Shown here piece after piece: positions 6,244 to 50,824 of a DNA stretch of 51,241 nucleotides (position 1 is the stretch's first letter; each line of letters opens with the position of its first letter). The notes under the pieces were generated by a model that did no database searches, was not told the DNA's origin, and saw nothing but the letters and a program-made list of their open reading frames with translations. The stretch covers positions 1 to 51,241 of IMG/VR virus record IMGVR_UViG_3300037474_000080; one strand, given 5' to 3'. The translations under genes and the position numbers were made by a program. The DNA comes from a virus. Lineage: Duplodnaviria; Caudoviricetes.

Positions 6244-8088
6244 TTAAGCAATGACCACACCTTCAATACTTTGCCCTATGACAATCTGGCCCCGCTCTGC
6301 CTGCGTACCACTCACGGAGTAGCCTGTCACTATGGCCGTAACTGAGTTTCCATCACGGTCAACGATGTTGCGAATAGAACCGCGACGAATGCCAGCGTCA
6401 AAACTCGCCAATTGGCAAGAAATCGTAGCCTTGGGATTCTTTGCCTGCTCCAATGCTCGTAGCGCCAATTCTTTCGCCACAGCATAGGGAATAAAGCCAG
6501 CGTCGAATGATATTGGTTCTCTTGCTCCGTCTGTTTCGTCAGATGCTTCATCAACCAACAACACTTGCCTGTTATTGATTGAGTCGCCGTTTCGGACTCG
6601 AACTGAATTGGTGCCTACATGCTCAGTGGTGCCGCTTGATTCTGGTCTGTTTTTTAACTGGTCTAATTTCTCAACGATGACTTGAATCTGGTCTGCGCCA
6701 GTATATCGCCACCATTGGGATGTAGTTGAAATGGGCAGGCGTTTTATAGTTGCGGAATCATCATCAGGCACACGCCCATTAAGAGAAGCTTCGAGCAGCG
6801 GAGTTTTAACAACGTTGTCCGGGTCTTCCTCTTCGTCGCCTTCAATAACAACCAAACCCTCTACTTGAATAAGGGCAAAGGTTTTCTCCATTTCGCCTGG
6901 GAATCCCGGTTTTGCTATCCAGTCAATCCTGCCTCTTTCCGTTTGAACATCTTGCATCGCCTTTGAACCGCTGCCCGTATCAACATAAGCGGTTGTGCGC
7001 TTTTCATAGCCAATTTTCAAACGCCATGAATTGGTGTACTTTTCGTCCTGTACTTCAACTAAGGTGTCTCTGACAATGCCGTTTTCGTCCCTTTGCTGTG
7101 AGCGCGTTTCGATTTTATAAACAGGGTCTGCGGTTATTTTAGTCGGGTCGTCTTCGTCGTCGTGAATCTCTGCGATATAGCGAATCGTGGTTATCTTTTG
7201 CCAGCCGGGTTCGCCGTAAGTTCCAACCTCACGCGGCGGATCTGTCTCTGTGCGAAAGGTCACGTTTTCAGGAAAGTCGTCTTCGGTTAAAGATTGAACG
7301 GAGATTTCCTTATGTGACAGCAGAACAGCATTGACAATGTTTAAGTCAGGGGTGGATTTTGAATAAGAGATATAACCTGAGGCGGTTACTGTCCTTGCTC
7401 CTGTCAATATGCCCTCTGGCAACTCACCGAAGATGTCAATTATGAACAGGCGATTGTCGTCTTCAAATACTACAGGCTTGAAATAGGAATAAAACGAAGC
7501 AGCAATGGAATGATATGAGGTCGTCAGAGAGAAGTCAGCGCGGGGAATCGCATAGTTCGGTAGGTTGTGAATCACTTCACTGAAGCCGCATTTCGTCACA
7601 TAAGCAAAATTCAGCACCTGAATTAAATCCAGGCTTGCAATGGAGATTGTTTCTGCAACGATTGGATTACCAGCAGAATCATTTACGTTCGTCTTGGTTT
7701 CATTATCTTGTAAGATAGTAACTACAGGGTCGTAGATTATGACTGGCATGCGCGGCGCAAGCTTCCATTTCTCCGCAATCGCATCAACGCCTTTTACTGA
7801 ATAAGCATCAGCAGGCGCAAGACCGCCGCCCACTTTGGTTATGCCAATGCTGCGGTTATCGCCGACAACCTTACCAGCTTTAATGAGATTGGTTTTTGGA
7901 TTACTGGTTATGTTGTGGCGTATGAGCAGGTCAAACTGGTCACCACGTTCAAATACCAGCGTCTTATCGGCAATGGTAACGTCGGCCAGTACGCCGAGGG
8001 ATGCTGAAGGGGCAGAGAAATTGAAGCTTGCAAGCGGTTGCTCTGTAGAATTGACCTTTAGAACTGAGGAATACTTTAAGGAAGGCAT
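6244..8088 (-). CDS. putative tail hub / minor tail protein
   Basis: 614 aa; C-terminal 'ISCQLASFDAGIRRGSIRNIVD...AIVTGYSVS' resembles baseplate-hub C-termini; located after tape measure. Confidence 0.55.
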   Translation of the reverse strand: MPSLKYSSVLKVNSTEQPLASFNFSAPSASLGVLADVTIADKTLVFERGDQFDLLIRHNITSNPKTNLIKAGKVVGDNRSIGITKVGGGLAPADAYSVKGVDAIAEKWKLAPRMPVIIYDPVVTILQDNETKTNVNDSAGNPIVAETISIASLDLIQVLNFAYVTKCGFSEVIHNLPNYAIPRADFSLTTSYHSIAASFYSYFKPVVFEDDNRLFIIDIFGELPEGILTGARTVTASGYISYSKSTPDLNIVNAVLLSHKEISVQSLTEDDFPENVTFRTETDPPREVGTYGEPGWQKITTIRYIAEIHDDEDDPTKITADPVYKIETRSQQRDENGIVRDTLVEVQDEKYTNSWRLKIGYEKRTTAYVDTGSGSKAMQDVQTERGRIDWIAKPGFPGEMEKTFALIQVEGLVVIEGDEEEDPDNVVKTPLLEASLNGRVPDDDSATIKRLPISTTSQWWRYTGADQIQVIVEKLDQLKNRPESSGTTEHVGTNSVRVRNGDSINNRQVLLVDEASDETDGAREPISFDAGFIPYAVAKELALRALEQAKNPKATISCQLASFDAGIRRGSIRNIVDRDGNSVTAIVTGYSVSGTQAERGQIVIGQSIEGVVIA

Positions 8089-8106
8089 AAATGGGTAATA
8101 GAAAAG
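8084..8106. repeat. 23-bp direct repeat copy 1 (GGCATAAATGGGTAATAGAAAAG)
   Basis: identical to 8791-8813; lies between divergent genes. Confidence 0.9.
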
Positions 8107-8562: not shown

Positions 8563-8795
8563 CGTAGGTTTATGTTTACCAAATCAATAATCACCGGCAC
8601 CCCATCACCGCCCTCTACGTCAACAGCAGCATTAAATACAGCCTCTTCGCCTTCACTGGTAATCGTTGCCGATGCTTCAAGCGTGTCCGTCAATTTGCCT
8701 GTTATGGTGACAGTAAAGAACGCAGGGAAGTAGAAGCGCGTAAGGTCATCCAGTGGCGCTAAAGATGGCCTTGTGATTGGGATAAGCAGCGGCAT
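8559..8795 (-). CDS. small tail-region protein
   Basis: 78-aa beta-rich ORF in the late-operon orientation. Confidence 0.55.
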   Translation of the reverse strand: MPLLIPITRPSLAPLDDLTRFYFPAFFTVTITGKLTDTLEASATITSEGEEAVFNAAVDVEGGDGVPVIIDLVNINLR

Positions 8796-8813
8796 AAATG
8801 GGTAATAGAAAAG
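8791..8813. repeat. 23-bp direct repeat copy 2
   Basis: identical to 8084-8106. Confidence 0.9.
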
Positions 8814-9788: not shown

Positions 9789-10898
9789 ATGCCAATAACC
9801 AAAAATTGCGAACATTGCCAAGCGCCTTATACTCGCGTTCCGGCTCTCGCGAAAGAGTCAAGATTCTGTAGCCGTAAGTGCTGCTTTGACTGGAAAGCGA
9901 TTTCTAGCAAGGCCGATAAGAGACTGCAAAAGATATGCGATAACTGCTCTGAGCCTTACTACGCTCTGCCAAATATATTCAAAAGGGCTAGATTTTGTAG
10001 TCGTGAATGCTACTACGCAAGCAAGCGTACTGAGAATAAACCGTTAAAAACTTGCGAGCAATGCAACAAAGAATACTATCCCAAAAGCAATGACCGCGCT
10101 CATAATGAAAAGCAAAAATACTGTTCTAATCAATGCAGCACTATTGCAAGCAGCACGGAAAAAGAGTGTCAAAAATGTGGCGCTTTATTCATTGTTACCA
10201 GGCTTAATTCGGGATTAAAATATTGCTCCGTTAAGTGCACGCCTCGCGGATCGTGCTCGTATTGCGGCAAATTGGTAACTGGAAAAGGAAACAAGCGTTA
10301 CTGTGATCGCTCCTGTGGTGCCTATGCCAAAAAGCGCATCGCTAAATTTTCCGAGTGCCACCACTGTAAAAGGTCATTCCCTCAGAAAAACGTTGACTCT
10401 GCCAAGCATAGAAAATATTGTTCTGCTCATTGTAGCAATCTTGCTACCGGAGAAACTAAGAACTGCCCGACTTGCGGTAAGGATTATTTTGCTCACAGGC
10501 TCATTAAGAATCGTTCCTACTGTTCTTCGAAATGCGTGCCCCGTAAGCCCTGTCCCCTGTGTGGAGTCGGTATCACTAAAAACCAAAGGCAGTTCTGTTC
10601 TTTAGAGTGCAGAAACATAGTCAAGGCGATTAAGCAAAATCACATCGCTCTGTGTTTTGCTAATACTATCCGTCTTAAAGGCTCCCTGGTTTGTGAGCGA
10701 TGCGGATACAACGTGATTGCCGGCTTGATTATTCACCATAAAGATAGAAACCGCCAAAACAACTCGCTCGGAAACCTCGAAACCCTATGTTCAAACTGCC
10801 ATTGTATAGAACATTATTCATACGCTCTTGAGCGAGATAGACTACTGGAAACGGCGAAAAAGATAGTGAAATACATAGATAAAATCAGCTTTCTTTAA
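9789..10898 (+). CDS. HNH endonuclease with an N-terminal array of treble-clef Zn fingers
   Basis: repeated CxxC...(Y/F)CSxxC units; C-terminal CERCG...IHHKDRNRQNNSLGNLETLCSNCHCIEH; GAGG RBS. Confidence 0.85.
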   Translation: MPITKNCEHCQAPYTRVPALAKESRFCSRKCCFDWKAISSKADKRLQKICDNCSEPYYALPNIFKRARFCSRECYYASKRTENKPLKTCEQCNKEYYPKSNDRAHNEKQKYCSNQCSTIASSTEKECQKCGALFIVTRLNSGLKYCSVKCTPRGSCSYCGKLVTGKGNKRYCDRSCGAYAKKRIAKFSECHHCKRSFPQKNVDSAKHRKYCSAHCSNLATGETKNCPTCGKDYFAHRLIKNRSYCSSKCVPRKPCPLCGVGITKNQRQFCSLECRNIVKAIKQNHIALCFANTIRLKGSLVCERCGYNVIAGLIIHHKDRNRQNNSLGNLETLCSNCHCIEHYSYALERDRLLETAKKIVKYIDKISFL

Positions 10899-11941
10899 TC
10901 GTCTGACCAGCCAGCCCCGGAAGACACAAGGCCAGAAACCCTGACATCAAGAGGGTAAGGATTCGATAAACTGTTACCGCCCTCAGTAACCAAAATCCGA
11001 ACGTGAAAATCAGCAAATCCGCCTGCCGTGATTGTTCCGGTCGCTTGCCCTGACTCAGTCAAATCAATGTCAGCGGTGCCAAACGTACCAGGGCTTCCCG
11101 ATTCATCAGGCGCTATCTGCATAAAGCGAGTGCTGAATATGAGAATGTTTGCGGTGCTGGAATCTTCGGCATCCTCGGATAATAAAAACTCAACGTCTTG
11201 CAGGCTACCAGATGTGATTCGATAACGATCAACGACATTCAAGCCCTCGCTTGTGCCTTCTGATGAGTCCGTCAGATTGATGACATCGAATAAAGAACCA
11301 TCAAACAGCACATCCATTATTTTTGATTCATCTGAACCCGTTACATTCTCAACCGTGATTGCATACGGACTCACCTGCCCATCCGTGAGCTTCTCTGTGG
11401 CAGATTCGGCAAAAGGAAACACACGCGCAAAGATAGTGCCAACCTTCGCCCAATGCTTGACGATGTTGACCAACTCAGCGATGCAGTTTGACGCACTCTC
11501 AGAACCTGTATTTTCTACCCTTACCTTTCTACTTGTGCCAGGTATGCCAGCAGACGCGCCAAATGATTCAGCAGCGCCAAAGGATAGACCGACTTTGATT
11601 TGTGCGGTCCAGGTGTCCAAGAATCCCGCGTCATCATCGAAAACAAGATCAACTCCGCGAAGTACATTCTTGTAAATCGTGGTGCCATCGAGTAATACGG
11701 TTTTACCCACACTGTCAATATTTGGATTATTGGGAGAATCAGCATTGACTTTGACCGTAGCATCTACGGCAGGGTCGCTATCATCAAACGTGAGGCTATA
11801 CACGCCTGCGATTGCTCCGCCATCGCCATTTGATACAGCAGACACGACCGGCGTTCCTGACGTGTTACTGAGGCGGCATGAGGCATCTACGAATGTGCCT
11901 GAAAGTGCAGCTTCTTCAATTTTACAAACTAATCCACTCAT
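10895..11941 (-). CDS. minor tail protein
   Basis: 348 aa acidic, beta-rich; second gene after tape measure. Confidence 0.55.
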   Translation of the reverse strand: MSGLVCKIEEAALSGTFVDASCRLSNTSGTPVVSAVSNGDGGAIAGVYSLTFDDSDPAVDATVKVNADSPNNPNIDSVGKTVLLDGTTIYKNVLRGVDLVFDDDAGFLDTWTAQIKVGLSFGAAESFGASAGIPGTSRKVRVENTGSESASNCIAELVNIVKHWAKVGTIFARVFPFAESATEKLTDGQVSPYAITVENVTGSDESKIMDVLFDGSLFDVINLTDSSEGTSEGLNVVDRYRITSGSLQDVEFLLSEDAEDSSTANILIFSTRFMQIAPDESGSPGTFGTADIDLTESGQATGTITAGGFADFHVRILVTEGGNSLSNPYPLDVRVSGLVSSGAGWSDD

Positions 11942-17095: not shown

Positions 17096-17371
17096 ATGAA
17101 ACCTGATAGCCGACGAAAAGGTCAAGCAAAATCTGACAGGAAGGGAATCACCCTTCAGAGCTTTCTTAAAAAACATGGTCAATGGGATGACGATCTGGTT
17201 TTTGAATCCCTCAAAGGCTTGCGACCTCTCAAACTTAGAGCGTTGCTCACGCTGGCACTTCACGCTGATGAAAAGCTGACGGACAAGCTTCTTGAAGTAG
17301 CTGGCATAAGAACAGACGTAAGCCAGCGCATACTGGTAAAACTCTATAACAGTCAGGAAGGTGACGAATAA
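17096..17371 (+). CDS. helical hypothetical protein
   Basis: AAAGGA RBS; TAATG-coupled to the S24-like gene. Confidence 0.7.
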   Translation: MKPDSRRKGQAKSDRKGITLQSFLKKHGQWDDDLVFESLKGLRPLKLRALLTLALHADEKLTDKLLEVAGIRTDVSQRILVKLYNSQEGDE

Positions 17372-17784
17372 TGAGCGCAAATGTAATTCCATTTCCATCT
17401 GCTAAACCTTGTTTGCCTGAATCTAACCCGGTCTCTTTCTTTGATACTCCCGTCGAGAAGTATATTGATATAAGACCTATCGAAAACGCGGCTCCCGGCG
17501 ATGAGTTTTTTGGTTGCAGATTAGACGGAGGCTCACTTTCGGGCGACGGTATTTTTGATGGTGACTTTGCAACCTTTCGTAAGATTTCAGACCTTTGCGT
17601 AATCAAGCCCGGTACTCTTATTGCGGTTCTTACGCCTGACGGACTGCTCATTCAGCATGCCTATTTAGGCATCGGAACTATAAGACTGGTCGCTTCAAAC
17701 CCTCAGTATAAAGACCGTACCTATCTGCTTTCTGATGTTGAAATCGTTGGCACAATCGTTAGGGTCGAAAGGGATTTCCAGTAA
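17371..17784 (+). CDS. LexA/S24 peptidase-fold protein, probably inactive
   Basis: FGCRLDGGSLSGDGIFDGD...IAV...LLIQH...IRLVASNPQY...VEIVGTIV; general-base Lys replaced by Gln; no HTH. Confidence 0.8.
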   Translation: MSANVIPFPSAKPCLPESNPVSFFDTPVEKYIDIRPIENAAPGDEFFGCRLDGGSLSGDGIFDGDFATFRKISDLCVIKPGTLIAVLTPDGLLIQHAYLGIGTIRLVASNPQYKDRTYLLSDVEIVGTIVRVERDFQ

Positions 17785-21857: not shown

Positions 21858-21908
21858 ATACTTAAATGGGGAGTATTAAAACCTATGCGCTTTGGGTATA
21901 ATCTGGCT

Positions 21909-37743: not shown

Positions 37744-39414
37744 TCACTGAATCCGATTTGAAGACAAGGCATCTGCTCTTTCACCTTTTCTAAATCTGCC
37801 AGGGTCTTGGCTGAAACGTCCGGTTACTCTGTCGTGAAAAAGCTCTGCCATTCCCAGCTGACCACACCAGTTGTTTTTAACCTTCAGCACGTTGACACAT
37901 AACGGCGCGTCCCTATCGTCTTTGTCGCGCCATACTGAAATACCAAAATCAGGCATGTTGAACCAATGTGCACTGCCGCTGATGTCGTAGAGTGTTGGCA
38001 CCGGATATGCCCCGTTTTCTTTGCGTAACTTTGTCGGATGCGCCACAAAATAGTTGTGCATTTTGTTCTGCTTGCAGAAAGCATCAAACTCGCCAAGCAG
38101 CTGACAGTTGTATTGATCTTGCGTTTGATTCGGTGCCTGAAAATGTTCAAGCCTGTTATACGGGTCAACTACCAGCGAGGTCGTACCGTGGCGAAGTATG
38201 CTGCTTTTCGTAAGCTTCAAAAGGTCAGGAAGTGAGCGCCGTGATATTTCGGGATTCATCACCACAAACCTGTCATGCACCCATTCAGCCGCTTGAATCA
38301 TTTCGATTTCGCTCATTCGCTGCGTGGGGCCCGGCTCAAAAGGCAGCCCCGTATAAAGCTCTGTCAGGTATGAGTAATATAATTCCGGGGGACAATCTTC
38401 GGGCGGAAACACAAGAAATTTCCAGCCAGCATTAACCGCAAGATTCATCATCATTGCGCGAAGAAAAGGCGACTTTCCGGCATTAGGCGAACCGGTTACC
38501 ACTGTCCAGGTACCAAGTCGGGGCTTATAGAGATCCGCCAGATTATCCCATCCGCAATATTCGCCGCGTGGCCTGCCGTTGCGGTACAGGTCAATCAAAT
38601 CGTCCAGCACATCGACAACCTGAAATACGCCTTCTATCGGCATCGGGCGCGCAAAATTGATTGCCTCCTGCACCGCTTCAACACCGTAATGTACAAGCAC
38701 ATCGTTCAAATCTTTGCAGCCTTCCGGGTATATGGCCCGGTAGCATTTTTCAGCACCCAGGCGACGAATCAACTCAGCCTGTAGCTTTTGCCCTGGTTCG
38801 TCGTTATCGCTTGCGATTATGAACTTCTGAATTTTTCCAAGCATCGGCTCAATGCCTGCCAGAATATCAAGCTTTGACTTTGCGCCATTCGGAACCGATA
38901 CGCAGTTGCGAAAGCCAGCGGTCTCAGCGGAAAGCTTGTCAATTTCGCCCTCTACGAAAATCAGTGGCTTTTCCGAGTCAATGTCATCAATGCCGTAGAA
39001 AATCAATTCAGCACCCGATTCAAGCTTGAAATCCTTGTCAGCCGTTCGATACTTCACGTTGACAATTTCCTGATTGCGATAGTACGGGAAGCAGATCACC
39101 CGTTCTTCTCGCTCGTTTCGAGGCATCCAGACCTTGCGCGCCTCGATTTGATTGCGCCTTAAAACCTCAACAGGGATGCCGCGTTTTGCAAAAAATTCAT
39201 TCAACTTTTCGTTTTCGGTTGGCTCGGGCTTGTACTCTGGCTTGCGATAAGAAACCGCCCGAGATGAAAATTCAACAACAGCATCAGAGCCTTTCCAGCC
39301 GCAATGATGGCAGTTGAAAAGCATCGTTTCGGTGTTGTACGAAAGCGGCTTGTCGTTTTGATTTTTGCCGCTTCTTTGGTGCTGGCACTGTGGGCATTTG
39401 CGTTTCTGATTCAT
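37744..39414 (-). CDS. T7 gp4/Twinkle-like primase-helicase
   Basis: Zn finger CPQC...CHHC; Toprim VEGEID, DND..G, KDLND; Walker A GSPNAGKS; VVDPY, VAHP, YDISGS. Confidence 0.92.
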   Translation of the reverse strand: MNQKRKCPQCQHQRSGKNQNDKPLSYNTETMLFNCHHCGWKGSDAVVEFSSRAVSYRKPEYKPEPTENEKLNEFFAKRGIPVEVLRRNQIEARKVWMPRNEREERVICFPYYRNQEIVNVKYRTADKDFKLESGAELIFYGIDDIDSEKPLIFVEGEIDKLSAETAGFRNCVSVPNGAKSKLDILAGIEPMLGKIQKFIIASDNDEPGQKLQAELIRRLGAEKCYRAIYPEGCKDLNDVLVHYGVEAVQEAINFARPMPIEGVFQVVDVLDDLIDLYRNGRPRGEYCGWDNLADLYKPRLGTWTVVTGSPNAGKSPFLRAMMMNLAVNAGWKFLVFPPEDCPPELYYSYLTELYTGLPFEPGPTQRMSEIEMIQAAEWVHDRFVVMNPEISRRSLPDLLKLTKSSILRHGTTSLVVDPYNRLEHFQAPNQTQDQYNCQLLGEFDAFCKQNKMHNYFVAHPTKLRKENGAYPVPTLYDISGSAHWFNMPDFGISVWRDKDDRDAPLCVNVLKVKNNWCGQLGMAELFHDRVTGRFSQDPGRFRKGERADALSSNRIQ

Positions 39415-43445: not shown

Positions 43446-43913
43446 TTAGCTTTGCGAATCTACGGCTATGGCTCTGTAGTTGATCTCGCCTTCAGGTGTA
43501 TGCCAACCCGTTTCGGTTGAATAGACATTCTCACCGTCGTATTCGGGATAAAGGCGGTCTGACAATCTACCGAGCAATGCACCGTCAACGCCTGTACAGG
43601 GAAAGTCTTTCCAGAAATCGGTATTTATCAGGTACCAAAGCAATTTCTTGTCATCCATGCTTTCAGTGGCGGCAATGGCTTCCATTTCGCCAACCATAAA
43701 TTCCATAGTGCGCTTTTTGTATTCTTCTCTTATGCCAATCCGTTCCAGACGGAAAACGACTTGCGCCGATAAGGTTTCCTGAAAGGTCTTTGAGCATTCA
43801 CTGCAATCCTGATAACCAAAAACGTTTAAGTGCTGACAGTTTTGGCACTGCCAAAACACCTTGCCGTCCTGATGGATTAATTCAACGTGGATTTTCTTTG
43901 GTAATAGGCTCAT
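43446..43913 (-). CDS. Zn-finger hypothetical protein
   Basis: WQCQNCQHLN....DCSEC; GAGG RBS. Confidence 0.7.
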   Translation of the reverse strand: MSLLPKKIHVELIHQDGKVFWQCQNCQHLNVFGYQDCSECSKTFQETLSAQVVFRLERIGIREEYKKRTMEFMVGEMEAIAATESMDDKKLLWYLINTDFWKDFPCTGVDGALLGRLSDRLYPEYDGENVYSTETGWHTPEGEINYRAIAVDSQS

Positions 43914-44380
43914 TGATTCACCTCTCTTTGCGGTAACATCGCTTCCAATGCCGCAATCGCTTCGTTTATCTCTTTTTCAAGCTCATCATCTTTTGCACCA
44001 GTACCAGCCGCTTGAATCGCTTCTGATACTTCACGAATCATATTTCTGAACAACTCTTTCCTGTCGGCTTTCGGGCAAATGCCAAGATGTTTTTGCAGCA
44101 TCTGGCGATAGCGATTGATAACCATTTCTGCCGCCGCCGGATTGTTGAGCAGGAAGTGTTCAAAGCAAATATCCAGGCGGTCTATAGGGTTCAAGGTGCC
44201 GGTGCCGTGTCCATCAGATGAAAGCGGCTCTCTGCACCACCGGCGTATCAGGTCTTCACTCTTGTTAAGCTTCGTGGCAAGTCGCCGCGCCGTGCTACGG
44301 GGTACGCCTTCCTGAAATATTCGATAGCTATCCATCTCTACCAATTCATCCTTTTGATTTTCTTCCTTCGTTTTTGCCAC
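43910..44380 (-). CDS. CII/CP76-like phage regulatory protein (start uncertain)
   Basis: HTH RLATKLNKSEDLIRRW; GT.NPIDRL; EVSEAI...EINEAI. Confidence 0.65.
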   Translation of the reverse strand: MAKTKEENQKDELVEMDSYRIFQEGVPRSTARRLATKLNKSEDLIRRWCREPLSSDGHGTGTLNPIDRLDICFEHFLLNNPAAAEMVINRYRQMLQKHLGICPKADRKELFRNMIREVSEAIQAAGTGAKDDELEKEINEAIAALEAMLPQREVNQ

Positions 44381-44438: not shown

Positions 44439-44645
44439 CTAAATCCTTGCGCATATCCCGGCAGCAGCAACGCCAACCGCCAGGGCAAAATAATCTGTAA
44501 TCGCCACAGGGTCACAGCCAAGCCAGCCCATCAAGAGCAGGGCTACGATAACGATCACCACAGCCGACAGCATCACGCAAAGCGCCAGGTAAAGCAGTCT
44601 GTCTTCGCGGCTGTATTTCAAATGTCTCAGGTAGTCTTGAATCAT
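44439..44645 (-). CDS. small two-TM protein
   Basis: AGGAG RBS; two hydrophobic stretches. Confidence 0.6.
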   Translation of the reverse strand: MIQDYLRHLKYSREDRLLYLALCVMLSAVVIVIVALLLMGWLGCDPVAITDYFALAVGVAAAGICARI

Positions 44646-44648
44646 CGC

Positions 44649-44798
44649 TTATCTCCTGTCGCTCACAGCTTCCGGTGTGTGTTCGCTATCCGGCTGGGCA
44701 TCCTGTCGCATCGCATCGCCTTCGCGGTTCACTACGCGCCCTATCATTTCAGACGTGCGATTCAGGTAATGCGCTTCCGTTATATAAAGTTCGTACAT
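44649..44798 (-). CDS. 49-aa peptide
   Basis: AAGGA RBS; MYELYITEAHYLNRTSEMIGR...; absent from the ORF track. Confidence 0.5.
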   Translation of the reverse strand: MYELYITEAHYLNRTSEMIGRVVNREGDAMRQDAQPDSEHTPEAVSDRR

Positions 44799-44813
44799 AA
44801 TTTCCTTGCATAT

Positions 44814-44879
44814 TTTCACCGCCTGCGCCCATCCGGAAGTTTGCGAAGACTTACCGCGAGCCTGGACGCAGGTAGTGAA
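44814..44879 (-). ncRNA. structured RNA element carrying a 24-nt antisense to the 48840 leader
   Basis: outer stem TTCAC.ACCTGCG.CCA / TGG.CGCAGG.GGTGAA; inner segment repeats at 48840-48863. Confidence 0.6.
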
Positions 44880-44882
44880 TCT

Positions 44883-45185
44883 TTAGCCAGCCATTTTCAG
44901 GTGGCGGGGCATCTTGGTTCTGCTTTCAACCTTTTCTCTGAAAGCGATCACGTCACCGGCTTTGAATCGCAGCGTTTGCCGCTTGCCCGGATCACCAAAT
45001 CTGTAGCAAGGAATTTCGCGTGTGCCTGCTTTGCGGTGGTTCACTGTCTCTTCGGATATACCCAGAAATGCCGCGACCTCTTTCACGCTCCAATAAGAAG
45101 CAAAGAAGTTCACCTTTTCCCCTTGCTCGTTAAGCAGCTCTTGCAGGTCGCGCAACTCTTCGCCGTATTGCTTGAAAAATCCCAT
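44883..45185 (-). CDS. excisionase-like HTH protein
   Basis: WSVKEVAAFLGISEETV......IPCYRFG....LRF. Confidence 0.75.
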   Translation of the reverse strand: MGFFKQYGEELRDLQELLNEQGEKVNFFASYWSVKEVAAFLGISEETVNHRKAGTREIPCYRFGDPGKRQTLRFKAGDVIAFREKVESRTKMPRHLKMAG

Positions 45186-45195
45186 AGCATCACCT

Positions 45196-45600
45196 CTATG
45201 CAGCAATGGCGTTCATCGCCTGATGGTCTGAAGCTGTGCCGCCAAATATGCAGCCAGCAGGATTCGGGTCAACCAGACGGCAACCACAGCACTTGCAAGG
45301 CTCAGCAATCGTCAACTCAATCGGCGCAAGAAACTCTTCTACAGCGCGCATATGAACGCATTGCTTACGAGCAGGACACGAGCAAGACAGGTGACCGTCT
45401 GAGTGCTTTACAACCTCACGAACCGAACTTGGGCGCGATGATGAAGCAACGTGATACCTTGTGCCCTTTACCGCTTCAACAACTGAATTGCAGTAATCAT
45501 CGAAGCTCAGGCGCGACGGTTTCGCTTCACGCATCAATTGCGCGTTTATCTGCTGGCGAAACATTGCTTTTGCTGGATTGGTTGCAGGCTGTGCGCTCAT
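45196..45600 (-). CDS. SWIM zinc-finger protein
   Basis: YHVASSS...SCSCPARKQCVHM (CxC...CxH). Confidence 0.75.
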   Translation of the reverse strand: MSAQPATNPAKAMFRQQINAQLMREAKPSRLSFDDYCNSVVEAVKGTRYHVASSSRPSSVREVVKHSDGHLSCSCPARKQCVHMRAVEEFLAPIELTIAEPCKCCGCRLVDPNPAGCIFGGTASDHQAMNAIAA

Positions 45601-45773
45601 TAGGCGTTCGCTCCTTGTCCGTTGGCTGCGGTTTTTTGAGCGACATACTGACTAAGAACCTGCTCAATATGCTTAAGTCTGGTTCTGCCATTTTCTTTCC
45701 CTTCTTCAGCGAGAGCTTTCTCAACCGCTATAGGAAGTTCGATAAGAAACTTTTTCTTTTGTTCATCTTTCAT
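45600..45773 (-). CDS. ribbon-helix-helix (Arc-like) regulator, Cro position
   Basis: KKFLIELPIAVEKALAEEGKENGRT; AAAGGA RBS; first gene after a strong promoter. Confidence 0.75.
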   Translation of the reverse strand: MKDEQKKKFLIELPIAVEKALAEEGKENGRTRLKHIEQVLSQYVAQKTAANGQGANA

Positions 45774-45784
45774 CGTTTTATCCT

Positions 45785-45907
45785 TTCGATATACATACAA
45801 TATCGAATGAATATATGAATGTCAACAACTTTCTTTATTCATTGGATATATATTTTATATCTATTGAATAAAAAGAATTTAGAGCATTAGAATATTCTTT
45901 TAATATT
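45785..45907. promoter_or_regulatory. immunity region: leftward promoter and (G/A)ATAT-N7-ATAT(C/T) operators
   Basis: TTGACA(45825-45820)-17-TATTGT; palindromes at 45788-45804, 45845-45861, 45891-45907. Confidence 0.75.
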
Positions 45908-45935
45908 GGAGCGATATATGTTAAATTTGGCGGCG

Positions 45936-46250
45936 ATGAAGAAAACCGAGGGGAAACACAAACGTCTAATTGAACTTCCAATGGAGCTTTGGAACGCTTT
46001 AGATGCTGAGGCCGAACGGTGCAGGCGGACACCGTTAAAGCATTTGGATGCGCTTCTCACGGTATACTTTCGGATTGGAAACGTAGAACTTGGCGATGTC
46101 GACAGTGTTCGTGATTTCGTCAATCCAGATTCAAATCAAATTCCCGCCAACACAACTCAGGGCGAAACAAAACCCGGAACAACAAGAATTGCCTCTCTGG
46201 ACATTACCGCTAACAAAGAGCCAGTGGATAAAGGCAAAAAAAGAGCGTAA
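45936..46250 (+). CDS. ribbon-helix-helix regulator, CI position
   Basis: HKRLIELPMELWNALDAEAERCRRT; clear paralogue of the divergent gene. Confidence 0.75.
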   Translation: MKKTEGKHKRLIELPMELWNALDAEAERCRRTPLKHLDALLTVYFRIGNVELGDVDSVRDFVNPDSNQIPANTTQGETKPGTTRIASLDITANKEPVDKGKKRA

Positions 46251-46295
46251 GTGCGACCCATCTCGTCATAGACCAACAAGGGATTGGGGTAGTCT

Positions 46296-46736
46296 ATGAT
46301 TAAAAATAATAAGCTTGAGCCAATCAAGTGGATACGTGTGCCAATCATCTGCACGATTGGAGCCGCAAAGAAACACGAAACCTTTGACGATGTACCTATC
46401 TTGGAGTGGCGAACCATTCGAGAGATAAAAGGTGCGCGACCTTTCGATCAATATTGCGGTGCGCCAGTCGAAGGCAATTCAATGATCGGCGACAATATAC
46501 AGCACAACGATTTCGCAATCTTTCGCACCACGTTTGATATATGGGAAGTCACCCCAGGCCAGTTATGCGCGGTGTGGACACCACAAGGACTGCTGATAAA
46601 GAGAGTTTACATAACTCTGAATGATGAGATCAGGCTGGCATCATCAAATCCTGAGTTCTGCGATTTGGTTTTCAGCGTTGAAGATGTGTCAATACAGGGA
46701 ATCATCGTAAGAATCGAAAGAGATTACCACCAGTAA
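46296..46736 (+). CDS. stand-alone LexA/S24 peptidase-domain protein
   Basis: RVPII, VEGNSM (Ser), LLIKRV (Lys), LASSNP, IQGII. Confidence 0.85.
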   Translation: MIKNNKLEPIKWIRVPIICTIGAAKKHETFDDVPILEWRTIREIKGARPFDQYCGAPVEGNSMIGDNIQHNDFAIFRTTFDIWEVTPGQLCAVWTPQGLLIKRVYITLNDEIRLASSNPEFCDLVFSVEDVSIQGIIVRIERDYHQ

Positions 46737-46777
46737 TATCAACGATAGAATTCAAATTAAAGGAAGGCTGAAACATT

Positions 46778-46897
46778 ATGGCAGATAAGCCGAAACCGCC
46801 ACCAAAGCCCACATCTCCGCCGCCATCAGACGGGGTTAGGGGACACCCATCATTACCCAAACCGATAGCAGAGCGACCTGGAGAAAAAATAAGGTAG
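46778..46897 (+). CDS. 39-aa proline-rich peptide
   Basis: AAAGGAAGG RBS; MADKPKPPPKPTSPPPSDGVRGHPSLPKPIAERPGEKIR. Confidence 0.4.
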   Translation: MADKPKPPPKPTSPPPSDGVRGHPSLPKPIAERPGEKIR

Positions 46898-47327
46898 CGA
46901 CGATGTTCGCCAGATGTGCTTTTAGGTTTACCAGGCGAAGGTTTTTGTTAAACATATTGCCTTGCCAGTAAATCATATCTTTTTTGAATTCCCATTCATC
47001 TTCGTGAAGATAGTCATTGAAAAGCTTTGCTGGATTAAGGATTTCAAACTTGCCGAAGCCTCTGGCAATAGAGCCAATCGCTATGGCTAGGATGAAGCAA
47101 GCCGCCGCGCAATAGAATAGCTTTGAATGAAGATTTACCTGTTGGCCTTTAAGGGCTACTGAATAACCGGCAGTAATCGTAACACCTGCCGTAAGTATCC
47201 ATTGAAGCCGGCCTTCAACCGCTTCGAGTCTTTTTAATAAAGACTCTGAGGATTTAAGAGAGAGATCGTAGGCGATGCTTACTGAAGGATACTCTTCAAT
47301 TAATTTTTTAATAACTGTTTCTTTCAT
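46836..47327 (-). CDS. three-TM membrane protein (moron-like)
   Basis: three hydrophobic segments; GAGG RBS before MKETV. Confidence 0.7.
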   Translation of the reverse strand: MKETVIKKLIEEYPSVSIAYDLSLKSSESLLKRLEAVEGRLQWILTAGVTITAGYSVALKGQQVNLHSKLFYCAAACFILAIAIGSIARGFGKFEILNPAKLFNDYLHEDEWEFKKDMIYWQGNMFNKNLRLVNLKAHLANIVATLFFLQVALLSVWVMMGVP

Positions 47328-47378
47328 CGTCGTCTCACCTCTGAGGGGATTTAAACACCGAATCATTAATAAATCAAT

Positions 47379-48617
47379 ATGGCTATCAAGAAATATAAAA
47401 CCAAAGACGGCAGATGGAATTGGAAATATGACATCGGCGTTGGTAAGCATGACGTTGATTATAGAAGACTGCGAGAAAGCGGCTTTCAGAGTGCCGAAGA
47501 ATGCCGGGATGCTGTCGCCGCTATCAAAAGCGATTTCAAGCGAGGCAAGTATAAATTCAAATCCGACCAGGTGGACATCACAATTCTTGACCTGAAAAAA
47601 GCTCTATTGAAAAAGCTCGAAGGATTACAGCGCAGCAAATCAACGATCAATCAATACACTCGCGTTCTTGATGGCTTTGCGGAGCTATACCCGAACCTGC
47701 GAATTGAAGGCATAACCAGCGAGCATGTAGATAACTATTACGCCCATCGCCTGAACCAACCTACCGTAAGCGCCAACACTGCTGTTGATGATCTGCTGTT
47801 TCTTATGTCCTCGTTAAGGCGAGTAAGAGAACTATTCCCCCTGCTCAAAGACTGGAATCCACCCAGGCACGAGCCGGTTAAAAAAGTAAACGCCTATCGT
47901 GAGCGCGTCATTACCAAAGAGGAGGAGCAGAAAATTATCGCTGCCCTGCACGACCCGGACTGGTACGCCAACGATGACACACAGAGAAAGGAACGCGAGG
48001 TCGTTGCATTCGTCTTCTGGATGGCACTCAGGACGGGTATGAGAATAGGTGAAATCTTAGGGCTTAAGAAATCCGCTATCAGCTTCAACAAGGCACCAGG
48101 CGCGCCGAATGGCTGGATAACCGTCAAAGCGTCTCACACCAACGAGAAGACAAAAAACAGAAAGCATCGCATCGTCAAGATGACACAGAATGTTGCGACG
48201 GCCTTAAAAGCCAGAGTCGATGTTGCCAGCGATTATGTTTTTGAGAGCTACCGGAAACAGGGCTTTCCCTCGCACTGGATACTGAGAAGTTTTGCAAAAG
48301 CGTGTAATAGAGCGAAGATTCCGTACGGGCAGGAGACGGACGGCGGCATAGTCTTTCACGACACGCGACACACGGCAGCAACCCGTATGGCAATGTCAGG
48401 AACCGACATTAAGACTATCGGCAAAACTTTAGGGCATGGCGATGCCTATATCACACTTAGGTACCTGCACAGTACAAACGAATCTGAACTCGCCGGAATG
48501 CAGTCGCTTGACGATGGCGCTTTTAGTGTCCAAAATGTGTCCAATTCTGGTACGTATAAGACAGAATTGGACAACACTGTACGTAAAGAGGAATTGCTGA
48601 AAACCGTCAAAAAATGA
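47379..48617 (+). CDS. int: tyrosine integrase
   Basis: arm-binding N-terminus; TGMRIGE (R), KTKN (K), FHDTRH (HxxR), LGH, LRY (Y). Confidence 0.95.
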   Translation: MAIKKYKTKDGRWNWKYDIGVGKHDVDYRRLRESGFQSAEECRDAVAAIKSDFKRGKYKFKSDQVDITILDLKKALLKKLEGLQRSKSTINQYTRVLDGFAELYPNLRIEGITSEHVDNYYAHRLNQPTVSANTAVDDLLFLMSSLRRVRELFPLLKDWNPPRHEPVKKVNAYRERVITKEEEQKIIAALHDPDWYANDDTQRKEREVVAFVFWMALRTGMRIGEILGLKKSAISFNKAPGAPNGWITVKASHTNEKTKNRKHRIVKMTQNVATALKARVDVASDYVFESYRKQGFPSHWILRSFAKACNRAKIPYGQETDGGIVFHDTRHTAATRMAMSGTDIKTIGKTLGHGDAYITLRYLHSTNESELAGMQSLDDGAFSVQNVSNSGTYKTELDNTVRKEELLKTVKK

Positions 48618-48760
48618 ATAAAAACAAAGAATTACCCCGCCAATTCAGCCTTTTACAAGCTACCGCCTTAAATATGAGCAACATATCAAGCGTGGTTATT
48701 AAATACTGAAAACAATGTAGTTAATATGCGAAACTGATTTGGTGTCCAAAAAACGTCCAA
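48526..48760. other. attP-like region with arm-type repeats
   Basis: GTGTCCAA at 48526, 48537, 48742; ACGTCCAA at 48753; inverted TTGGACA at 48567; AT-rich centre. Confidence 0.7.
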
Positions 48761-48805
48761 CACTTCATGTTCTAAGCCTAAAATCAGCCCTCGAAAAAAT
48801 AGTTC

Positions 48806-48835
48806 TTGACTTTGAAATAGCGTTTGAATTACTGT
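48806..48835 (+). promoter_or_regulatory. promoter of the rightward early operon
   Basis: TTGACT-18 nt-TACTGT followed by a structured ~105-nt leader. Confidence 0.55.
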
Positions 48836-48945
48836 GACCTTGCGAAGACTTACCGTGAGCTTGCAGATTGAGCAAGCTCCTCGAATTGCAATCCACGCCT
48901 ATAACTTTTCTGCGTCAGAGCTAACGCGTTCCAAAGGGAACCGCG

Positions 48946-49350
48946 ATGAAAGCTTTATCTATTCGTCAACCTTGGGCATGGGCAATACTCCACGCTGGCA
49001 AGGATATTGAAAACCGCGACTGGCCTACCCGCTTCACTGGCACGATTGCCATACACGCCGCCAAAGGCTTAACCAAAGACGAACACTTGTTGGCTTCTAT
49101 GCAGATAGAAGAAATCACCGGATTAAGACCGTCTGCTTTTCCAATGCTGAAAGAGCGCGGCTTTATCGTCGGCGTTGCTGACATCGTTGGATGCGTCAAG
49201 GATAGCAATTCAGATTGGTTCTACGGTGAATATGGATTTCTACTCGAAAGGGTTGCTGTCCTTCCTTCGCCTATCTATTGCAAGGGCGCACTTGGATTCT
49301 GGGAAGTTCCCGCCGATATTGAACGCCAAATCAAGGAGCAGTTGCAATGA
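48946..49350 (+). CDS. ASCH-domain protein
   Basis: MKALSIRQPWAWAI..GKDIENR.W......IAIHA...KGALGFW. Confidence 0.92.
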   Translation: MKALSIRQPWAWAILHAGKDIENRDWPTRFTGTIAIHAAKGLTKDEHLLASMQIEEITGLRPSAFPMLKERGFIVGVADIVGCVKDSNSDWFYGEYGFLLERVAVLPSPIYCKGALGFWEVPADIERQIKEQLQ

Positions 49351-50037: not shown

Positions 50038-50589
50038 ATGAAAAACGAAACAGATTGGAAAGACTTTATGAACTCACTTGACCAAGTTTGTCCCGATTGG
50101 TCGCATCAAATTGTCAGCATCAAGCAGATAGGTGACTTAGTGGCTGTCACGGCATCCGTGGTGGTCGCTGGCGTCACCCGTCAAGGCATCGGCACAGGTT
50201 CGGCCTATGACGAATCCGGCATCAAGAATGCTGAGTATAACGCATTGCAACGCGCCGCTGTGAAATTCAGTGTAGCGCGTGAACTGCTCGAAAGTTCAGG
50301 TGAAGTTATCGAAATGCCTGAACCGCAGAAAGCGTTTTCCGGTAACCCAATGGCCAGGACAATGGCCGAACTTGTCACCCCGCGCCAGTTAGTAGCGATT
50401 CGCGCCATTAGCAATGGGCAAAGGCTCGACCCTGAAGATGAATGCCATGCTCTATTCGGCGAGAGGGCACCCGGTCAGAGAATCAAGCCAGAGGAATTGA
50501 GCCGCAAAGCCGCAAGCGCATTTATTGACTATCTCAAGATAGGCGGTTCAGCTGCGCAATCTACCACAGGGGAAGCTGCGACGGCATAA
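50038..50589 (+). CDS. Rad52/Rad22 (Sak)-like protein
   Basis: LD...PDWS..I......V.V.A.V...GVTRQG.G.......IK.AE..AL.RAAVKF.VAR.L. Confidence 0.75.
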   Translation: MKNETDWKDFMNSLDQVCPDWSHQIVSIKQIGDLVAVTASVVVAGVTRQGIGTGSAYDESGIKNAEYNALQRAAVKFSVARELLESSGEVIEMPEPQKAFSGNPMARTMAELVTPRQLVAIRAISNGQRLDPEDECHALFGERAPGQRIKPEELSRKAASAFIDYLKIGGSAAQSTTGEAATA

Positions 50590-50751: not shown

Positions 50752-50824
50752 GGCTAATCAATAGCCACCCGCGAAGATTCGGCGCGATGCCGTGATGTGC
50801 ATTTAGATGTGATGTGAAGGGGGA

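What the first reader, a model, noticed from the sequence alone, without database searches (positions are those of the whole stretch)
44814..48945. Trans-antisense link between the two early operons (P4 CI / P1 C4-like logic, unrecognised sequence)
Seen: TTGCGAAGACTTACCGCGAGCCTG (44841-44864) recurs as TTGCGAAGACTTACCGTGAGCTTG (48840-48863). The first copy is intergenic in a minus-strand operon, inside a ~65-nt stem-loop; the second is at the predicted +1 of a plus-strand operon, so the two RNAs are complementary. Both differences are C-to-T, giving G-U pairs in exactly this pairing direction. The loops GUAAGUCUU and AAGACUUAC are complementary. The target overlaps a GAGCTTGC/GCAAGCTC hairpin, and the ASCH RBS is buried in CGCGTTCC-aaag-GGAACCGCG. 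Inference: an RNA from the leftward operon switches termination or translation of the rightward operon (or the reverse), adding an RNA layer to the lysis-lysogeny decision.
Basis: partly seen in the sequence, partly recalled or inferred. Interest (0 to 1): 0.8.

Follow-up and report, generated by a model that had tools for sequence, protein, structure and literature searches.

The report
Co-evolving RNA pair links phage operons
In two distantly related soil-type temperate phages, a hairpin in the lytic gene region and the start of a gene cluster 4-5 kb away carry matching letters that changed together, which likely means one phage RNA pairs with the other and would switch that distant cluster on.

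Summary
The 24-nt repeat is real. One relative sharing little beyond integrase, excisionase and att site has the homologous repeat at the same two places: inside a ~65-nt hairpin just below xis, and at the predicted +1 of a promoter beyond attP. Of 20 duplex positions, 8 changed on both sides between the phages and all 20 still pair. All 3 within-phage mismatches give G-U in this direction only. In both phages the hairpin's apical loop is predicted to meet +1 to +6 of the partner (IS10 RNA-OUT/RNA-IN geometry), cognate pairs bind and crossed pairs do not. RNA-RNA pairing is likely (~0.8), but rests on two phages and no RNA data. Direction and sign are open. I favour the lytic hairpin opening the leader hairpin and switching the post-attP operon on (0.4) over a CI-like quench of the lytic mRNA (0.27). 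It is not a C4/CI family member (no Rfam match; partner in another operon). The scan noted similar logic before on other DNA (e1-5933470, e1-4728288; unchecked).

The parts
44815..44879 (-). 65-nt hairpin element just below xis in the leftward (lytic-type) operon: GC-rich base stem, weak upper stem, apical loop
   Evidence: Fold -33.4 kcal/mol, z -4.7; mean pair probability 0.97 within 290 nt of context. Base stem: 11 of the first 12 pairs form here and 12 of 12 in L122, with 4 changed on both sides.
44841..44864 (-). Antisense segment: apical loop (44841-44848) plus 5' arm of the hairpin
   Evidence: homologous segment at L122 6471-6490.
48840..48863 (+). Partner segment at the predicted 5' end of the post-attP transcript (+1 predicted at G48842)
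   Evidence: lies at the same distance from the -10 hexamer in the window and in L122. The start site is inferred.
48806..48835 (+). Predicted sigma70-type promoter of the post-attP operon (TTGACT-18-TACTGT)
   Evidence: 8 of 12 consensus matches; L122 has TTGCAA-17-TATTCT in the same register. Not listed by the stricter scan.
48857..48879 (+). Leader hairpin H1, whose 5' arm overlaps the partner segment; no U-tract after it
   Evidence: z -2.4 here and -3.6 in L122; lost when the 5' end is blocked.
48925..48945 (+). Hairpin over the ASCH ribosome-binding site; not predicted to change on pairing
   Evidence: -9.0 kcal/mol; persists in cofold and in the blocked fold.
48946..49350 (+). First gene of the post-attP operon, ASCH-like; an Erf-like annealing gene follows at 50038-50589
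   Evidence: Pfam ASCH E 7.8e-4, just under its cut-off; phrog_3193 E 4e-46 and phrog_1097 E 9e-4.
44883..45185 (-). Excisionase-like HTH gene directly upstream of the element
   Evidence: Pfam HTH_17 E 7.8e-7; 75-78% identical to the L122 protein.
45797..45825 (-). Predicted lytic promoter that would transcribe cro-like gene, xis and the element
   Evidence: TTGACA-17-TATTGT, 10 of 12, best of 7 sites; no terminator-like site between it and the element.
45600..46250 (.). Divergent pair of paralogous Arc/RHH-like genes (45600-45773 minus; 45918-46250 plus), a likely cro/cI switch
   Evidence: 45% identical over 42 aa; phrog_582 Arc-like E 0.0014; RHH-like Atlas neighbours, a lead only; three ATATCnAwTGAAT repeats between them.
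47379..48617 (+). Tyrosine integrase
   Evidence: Pfam PF00589 E 2.6e-25.
48526..48760 (.). Likely intact attP: GTCCAA arm-type repeats on both sides of a conserved core-like block (about 48630-48685)
   Evidence: 5 of the contig's 11 GTCCAA/TTGGAC words lie here; arms and block are conserved in L122. The arm-site label is recalled from tyrosine-integrase biology.
43910..44338 (-). CII-like gene downstream of the element in the same operon; replication genes follow
   Evidence: phrog_163 E 1.8e-7; Toprim primase gene at 37744-39414.

Best explanation
The hairpin below xis and the start of the post-attP operon carry co-evolving complementary sequences, and the hairpin RNA likely captures the nascent 5' end of that operon's transcript and would switch the operon on during lytic growth. 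Steps: (1) shown: the two sites match and changed together in two phages. (2) Predicted: the apical loop meets +1 to +6, the weak upper stem is invaded, and a 20-26 bp duplex removes the 5' arm of leader hairpin H1. (3) Inferred: the element lies in the repressor-controlled transcript, so it is made only when repression lifts. The post-attP promoter ends up at the far end of the prophage, away from the repressor switch, and needs another off-state. H1 would supply it as a pause or termination signal, and the RNA would lift it. (4) Unknown: whether H1 acts through Rho, NusG or decay, and whether the element is cut out of its mRNA.
For: Covariation: 8 of 20 duplex positions changed on both sides (6 Watson-Crick to Watson-Crick, 2 through G-U), 0 broken, while xis third codon positions differ at 41 of 78. 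All 3 within-phage mismatches in the 20-nt core are G-U in this direction and C-A in the opposite one. In each phage the +1 region is the element's best partner in the whole record: 18 versus next 12, and 17 versus next 13; crossed genomes reach 11-12. Same register to the -10 hexamer in both. Loops CUUCGCAA and CUGGACA are predicted unpaired and meet +1 to +6, the IS10 geometry described in PMC4737173 (passages). Binding is cognate-only and about twice as favourable before H1 is complete: -12.4 at 35 nt versus -5.0 at 45 nt in the window, -24.3 versus -12.5 in L122; crossed pairs -0.7 to +1.5. The L122 post-attP promoter has no operator-like site (rank 411 of 126,008). The operon's genes look like lytic accessory genes (Erf-like here, clamp-like in L122).
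Against: Only two phages carry both sites, so the changes are one comparison, not many events. H1 has no U-tract in either phage, and the leader is only weakly C-rich (C/G 18/13 and 16/15), so no terminator is identified. The first-gene RBS hairpins are not opened by pairing. In the window an operator-like site lies in the promoter spacer (48817, rank 8 of 102,458, score 11.7 versus 18.7-20 for the training sites), so protein repression could suffice there. With only 8-12 nt of target, predicted net binding is about zero in the window. Loop / 5'-end geometry does not fix which RNA is the regulator. The G-U bias has a chance of 1 in 8 if only transitions are considered.
Confidence: 0.4

Rival explanations
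1. Reverse direction, like P4 CI in effect: the post-attP promoter makes a short RNA (free 5' tail plus H1) in the lysogen. It would invade the hairpin in the lytic mRNA and cause cleavage or termination below xis, silencing leaky CII-like and replication genes as a second immunity layer. This can coexist with the best explanation as a mutual titration switch.
For: Same covariation and specificity. The right RNA folds as a 13-14 nt tail plus a stable hairpin. A CII-like gene and replication genes lie downstream of the element. The RNA-IN/OUT duplex is cut by RNase III (PMC4737173 passages). P4 CI silences replication genes by premature termination (PMC4825925 passage).
Against: No terminator defines a short RNA. 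Once H1 is complete, binding falls to -5 to -6 kcal/mol in the window, which suits capture of a nascent leader better than action of a finished small RNA. The conserved AAGGA site below the element is outside the hairpin.
Confidence: 0.27
2. RNA-OUT-like shut-off: the lytic hairpin RNA pairs with the 5' end of the post-attP mRNA and would trigger RNase III cleavage or decay, turning these genes off after lytic onset.
For: The geometry matches IS10, where pairing represses (PMC4737173 passages). The duplex of 20-26 bp is long enough for RNase III (recalled). H1 could be a 5' stabiliser and not a terminator, which fits the missing U-tract.
Against: The duplex lies about 85-90 nt upstream of the first start codon, unlike IS10 where it covers the RBS. 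It leaves the operon on in the lysogen, with no operator-like site in L122.
Confidence: 0.15
3. The repeat is a DNA site for a phage protein (Xis, Int or a repressor), bound at the post-attP promoter and below xis.
For: A site at +1 to +24 could repress the promoter, and a protein with altered specificity would also change both copies together.
Against: The Xis helix region differs at 1 of 24 residues between the phages and the GTCCAA arms are conserved, yet the repeat changed at 8-9 of 20 positions. The repeat is absent from both cI-cro gaps (best score 4-5), which have other motifs. It is not palindromic, has only 2 copies, shows only C/T mismatches, and sits in a hairpin with compensatory pairs.
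Confidence: 0.08
4. A relic with no present function: a duplication, gene conversion, or the boundary left by insertion of the xis-cI-int cassette.
For: The repeats flank exactly the xis-cI-int-attP cassette, and little else is shared between the two phages. The bare repeat score is near the genome-wide tail.
Against: attP is intact inside the cassette, so the repeats are not its attL/attR. The 11 columns shared by all four copies show one ancestral pair that was kept matched while diverging. Both hairpins straddle the repeat ends. The register to the -10 hexamer is identical in both phages.
Confidence: 0.07

Closest known systems
IS10 RNA-OUT / RNA-IN
   Same: A ~67-nt antisense hairpin whose loop starts pairing with the unstructured 5' end of the partner, and specificity can be changed at the initiating bases (PMC4737173 passages). 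The same geometry is predicted here in both phages.
   Different: RNA-OUT is encoded opposite its target (recalled) and blocks the RBS. Here the partner is encoded 4-5 kb away, the element is inside a polycistronic mRNA, the duplex is far from the first RBS, and there is no Rfam match.
Satellite phage P4 CI RNA (seqA / seqC)
   Same: A short structured phage RNA within a longer transcript, encoded as a direct repeat of its target, acting on a promoter-proximal leader (PMC4825925 passage).
   Different: CI pairs with two sites flanking it in its own transcript and causes termination. Here there is one partner, in a different operon across attP; no second site exists.
P1/P7 C4 antisense RNA
   Same: Loop-presented complementarity and phage-specific letters that could give heteroimmunity-like specificity (PMC12197685 passage); crossed pairs do not bind here.
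   Different: C4 blocks the RBS region of ant mRNA. No C4 model match in 3 of 3 records; no antirepressor was identified among the 15 window proteins scanned; the duplex does not cover an RBS.
Gifsy-1 IsrK
   Same: A prophage RNA that activates a structured leader in trans by strand invasion (PMC4825925 abstract and passages).
   Different: IsrK acts on the long form of its own transcript and on translation. Here the partners come from two promoters.
Engineered STARs (small transcription activating RNAs)
   Same: An input RNA displaces one arm of a leader hairpin to allow read-through (PMC11539451 passages); this is the logic of the best explanation.
   Different: STARs are synthetic and act on Rho-independent terminators. 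H1 has no U-tract and is not shown to terminate.

Membership tests
P1/P7 C4 (Rfam RF01695) | Match to the C4 covariance model | tested here: not met
   0 of 3 records match at E <= 10; no Rfam hit at gathering level in the window.
P1/P7 C4 (Rfam RF01695) | Target at the RBS region of an antirepressor mRNA | tested here: not met
   The partner is at +1, about 85 nt upstream of the ASCH start; no antirepressor family among 15 window proteins scanned.
P1/P7 C4 (Rfam RF01695) | Complementary bases presented in a loop, with phage-specific letters | tested here: met
   Predicted only.
P4 CI RNA | Two target sites, upstream and downstream in the same transcript | tested here: not met
   One partner only, in another operon.
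P4 CI RNA | Processed out of a precursor by RNase P | not testable with these tools
   CI and C4 are named as RNase P substrates in PMC5499578 (passage); there are no RNA reads for this phage.
P4 CI RNA | Pairing causes premature transcription termination | not testable with these tools
   No terminator identified at either site.
IS10 RNA-OUT | Hairpin loop pairs with the 5' end of the partner RNA | tested here: met
   Predicted in 2 of 2 phages; the start sites are inferred.
IS10 RNA-OUT | Sequence family match, and a duplex that covers the RBS | tested here: not met
   No RNA-OUT hit at E <= 10; the RBS is far from the duplex.
Antisense-controlled attenuator or STAR-type switch | Intrinsic terminator (hairpin plus U-tract) gated by the RNA | tested here: not met
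   No U-tract after H1 in either phage.
Antisense-controlled attenuator or STAR-type switch | Pairing removes one arm of a leader hairpin | tested here: met
   Predicted in 2 of 2 phages.
Phage repressor operator or Xis/Int site | Same motif as the cI-cro operators, or conserved along with Xis/Int | tested here: not met

The most novel reading that the evidence does not exclude
A natural trans-acting RNA antiterminator in a phage: an RNA hairpin carried in the cro-xis transcript turns on an operon that integration strands at the other end of the prophage. It does with a swappable 20-nt address what lambdoid phages do with N or Q proteins, and the address travels with the int-xis-att module across different repressor systems.
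Probability: 0.3. Interest if true: 0.85.

Novelty: new variant of a known kind. Interest (0 to 1): 0.64.

Why it matters
Phage antisense RNAs in the sources read here mostly act on an overlapping gene or within one immunity operon, and mostly repress. This pair joins two promoters across attP and survives a complete swap of the repressor module (RHH-like here, HTH in L122). If the link activates, it would be a natural counterpart of engineered STARs and a way to keep genes under lysogenic control without an operator. The two natural versions are predicted to be orthogonal, so the claim can be tested with short synthetic constructs without the host.

Tried and rejected
Rfam: no relevant match in the window or in L122 (best hit on the element DUF3268, E 5.9, 12 bits against a cut-off of 65). 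Exact 14-mer scan of viral contigs: 119 loci, and only records identical to the window aligned to it. More relatives: viral scans with int and xis gave only the identical record, L122/G002 and L124/G001. The metagenome and genome scans gave 3 and 1 distant HTH hits that I did not analyse. Contigs of 48.7 and 43.4 kb with 67-69% identical integrases exist but their DNA could not be fetched. A promoter-plus-motif scan gave 6 hits: 2 are the known phages, and 4 have no second copy or H1 and are taken as chance (the first check printed nothing because of a pattern error of mine). L124/G001 (34% int) has hairpins below xis but no partner in the record (best scores 12-13); the record is 63% complete and ends at int, so this is untestable. 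No RNA holder listed. DNA contigs of one run show no joint between the repeats; contigs drop rare forms and this run may be the window's source. RNAalifold on two sequences was misaligned by MAFFT and gave no usable consensus. No xis match among annotated phages, no integrase above 60%, no DNA match among plasmids. A plus-strand promoter in register with the left copy, a conserved internal promoter just above the element, and a minus-strand promoter into the right leader were looked for and not found.
Full report
Setting. The window is a single 51,241-base virus record, classed as linear and estimated 59% complete. It reads as a temperate phage. A leftward operon runs from a predicted promoter at 45825-45797 through an Arc/RHH-like gene, a small unknown gene and an excisionase-like HTH_17 gene (44883-45185) to a CII-like gene and replication genes. 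Rightward lie a paralogous RHH-like gene, an S24-like gene and an integrase (47379-48617). GTCCAA repeats flank a conserved block after int, which I read as an intact attP (label recalled from integrase biology). A second rightward operon, starting with an ASCH-like gene, follows. The host was not determined; the one run holding the DNA is a soil metagenome and may be the source.

Observation. The repeat is at the stated places, with two mismatches and no third copy. The left copy is in a 65-nt minus-strand hairpin (z -4.7) that persists in 290 nt of context. In the window the plus strand folds nearly as well (-32.4), but in the relative the minus strand is clearly preferred (-32.4 versus -21.2). 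The right copy starts just below TTGACT-18-TACTGT and overlaps hairpin H1. As a bare repeat it ranks second of the 12 top rows for this contig, with chance-like rows one or two points lower, so the window alone would be weak evidence.

The relative. Eight viral scans, one metagenome scan and one genome scan gave three phages with this xis family: a record identical to the window over the aligned stretch, G002 (L122) and G001 (L124). G002 is a 63-kb record with terminal repeats, 100% complete. It shares with the window only int (66-68%), xis (75-78%), the att region and two short late-region stretches, and its repressor pair is HTH-type. Its top-listed direct repeat in the 9 kb examined is a 20-mer at L122 6471 and 11455. 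The first copy is 20 nt below the xis stop in a minus-strand hairpin; the second begins 7 nt after the -10 hexamer of TTGCAA-17-TATTCT beyond the att arms. It occurs twice in that genome and nowhere in G001. The four copies are homologous. Over +1 to +20, 11 duplex positions are the same, 8 changed on both sides, 1 on one side, and none is broken. All three within-phage mismatches are left C / right T: G-U in the proposed duplex, C-A in the opposite one. In each phage the +1 region is the element's best partner in the whole record (18 versus 12; 17 versus 13), and crossed searches reach 11-12. Extrapolated genome-wide expectations are about 1e-4 and 4e-3. The element's base stem also has compensatory changes at 4 of its first 12 pairs. 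This is one pairwise comparison, not many independent events. G001 is 63% complete and ends at int; it has hairpins below xis but no partner in the record, so 1 of 1 testable relatives agrees.

Geometry. In both phages the predicted apical loop (CUUCGCAA; CUGGACA) is complementary to +1 to +6 of the right RNA, and the 5' arm continues the match through a bulged, G-U-rich upper stem. Three of the changed positions (+2 to +4) lie in this loop. Predicted binding is cognate-only, and it is strongest at 30-35 nt of nascent leader (-12.4 and -24.3 kcal/mol), falling to -5.0 and -12.5 at 45 nt once H1 forms; crossed pairs stay between -0.7 and +1.5. With 12 nt or less of target, net binding is about zero in the window and -2.5 in L122. 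This loop / 5'-end arrangement is what PMC4737173 describes for IS10 RNA-OUT and RNA-IN (passages).

DNA-level alternatives. The Xis recognition region differs at 1 of 24 residues and the arm repeats are conserved, while the repeat changed at 8-9 of 20 positions. The cI-cro gaps carry other motifs and no copy of the repeat. attP is intact inside the cassette, so the repeats are not its attachment ends. No plus-strand promoter stands in register with the left copy. I leave 0.15 for a protein site or a relic.

Mechanism. Shown: the match and its concerted change. Predicted: the duplex and the loss of H1. Inferred: after integration the post-attP promoter would sit at the far prophage end. In L122 it has no operator-like site (rank 411 of 126,008), although the window has a weak one in the spacer (rank 8 of 102,458). 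Its genes look like lytic accessory genes, and the element is only in the repressor-controlled transcript (no conserved internal promoter). The simplest logic is that the lytic RNA switches the stranded operon on by capturing its nascent 5' end (0.4). The output step is missing: H1 has no U-tract, the leaders are only weakly C-rich, and the first-gene RBS hairpins are not opened. The reverse direction, a short leader RNA that quenches the lytic mRNA above the CII-like and replication genes, gets 0.27, and an RNA-OUT-like shut-off gets 0.15. The first two can both be true. I did not search the whole contig for a protein antiterminator.

Comparison with known systems. It works like RNA-OUT/RNA-IN in geometry and like P4 CI and P1 C4 in being a phage RNA encoded as a direct repeat of its target. 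It is not a member of these families: no Rfam match, one partner instead of two, a different operon, and no RBS under the duplex. What I saw of each paper: passages of PMC4825925 with its abstract, PMC8201110, PMC4737173, PMC12360218 (it lists host sRNAs that block Rho termination in leaders), PMC5499578, PMC5415839 and PMC11539451; part 2 of 6 and passages of PMC12197685. Nine searches of the open library listed nothing, by title or abstract start, on an RNA link between a xis 3' hairpin and a post-attP promoter. Most subscription papers, including the original P4, P1 and N15 work, are outside that library, so this does not show absence from print.

Earlier notes of the scan. Nothing was noted on this genome or on look-alike DNA. 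Notes on other genomes describe similar logic: e1-5933470 (matched boxes between rightward leaders and the leftward early RNA, read as an RNA antiterminator) and e1-4728288 (an int-adjacent small RNA addressed to the xis leader, the reverse direction). I did not check them and do not count them as support. The second kept me from lowering the reverse rival. They suggest the general kind recurs in uncultured temperate phages.

Verdict. A real, co-evolving, probably RNA-level link (about 0.8), best filed as a new variant of phage antisense control. Its direction and sign are untested. Interest 0.64.

Noticed in passing
window 8084-8106 and 8791-8813 (weaker copies near 21859 and 25548): A perfect 23-nt direct repeat, the top-scoring repeat of the contig, in intergenic gaps of the tail region. 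Both copies are followed by a TATAAT- or TATACT-like hexamer; possibly a shared promoter element of inserted genes.
   Followed up: no
window 45600-46250: The cro/cI position is held by two divergent paralogous Arc/RHH-like genes (45% identical) with three ATATCnAwTGAAT repeats between them. The S24-like domain is a separate gene (46296-46736), and a second one lies at 17371-17784.
   Followed up: partly
window 48817-48829: An operator-like 13-mer in the spacer of the post-attP promoter (rank 8 of 102,458); L122 has no counterpart.
   Followed up: partly
window 44799-44809; L122 about 6418-6428: GCAAGGAAATT (minus strand) is conserved just below the element in both phages, although the next genes differ; probably the next RBS.
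   Followed up: partly
window 48630-48685; L122 about 11255-11310: A conserved att-core-like block between the arm repeats; no tRNA or tmRNA was called in the window and the host target is unknown.
   Followed up: partly
L124 6294-6364, about 6455-6512, and 9858-9939: Three strong hairpins in the distant relative: two below xis (one covers an AGGAG site and an AUG) and one just above int. No partner was found in the 63%-complete record for the two below xis.
   Followed up: partly
G001:C1 717-739 and 33994-34016: A perfect 23-nt direct repeat with one copy inside the integrase gene and one near the other end of the record; unexplained.
   Followed up: no
window 44640-44760 and 50760-50820: Similar GCGAAG / GCGATG-rich intergenic stretches in the two early operons, seen by eye; not tested.
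   Followed up: no
window 9789-10898: A 369-aa plus-strand gene with many CxxC repeats, inserted against the direction of the tail operon.
   Followed up: no
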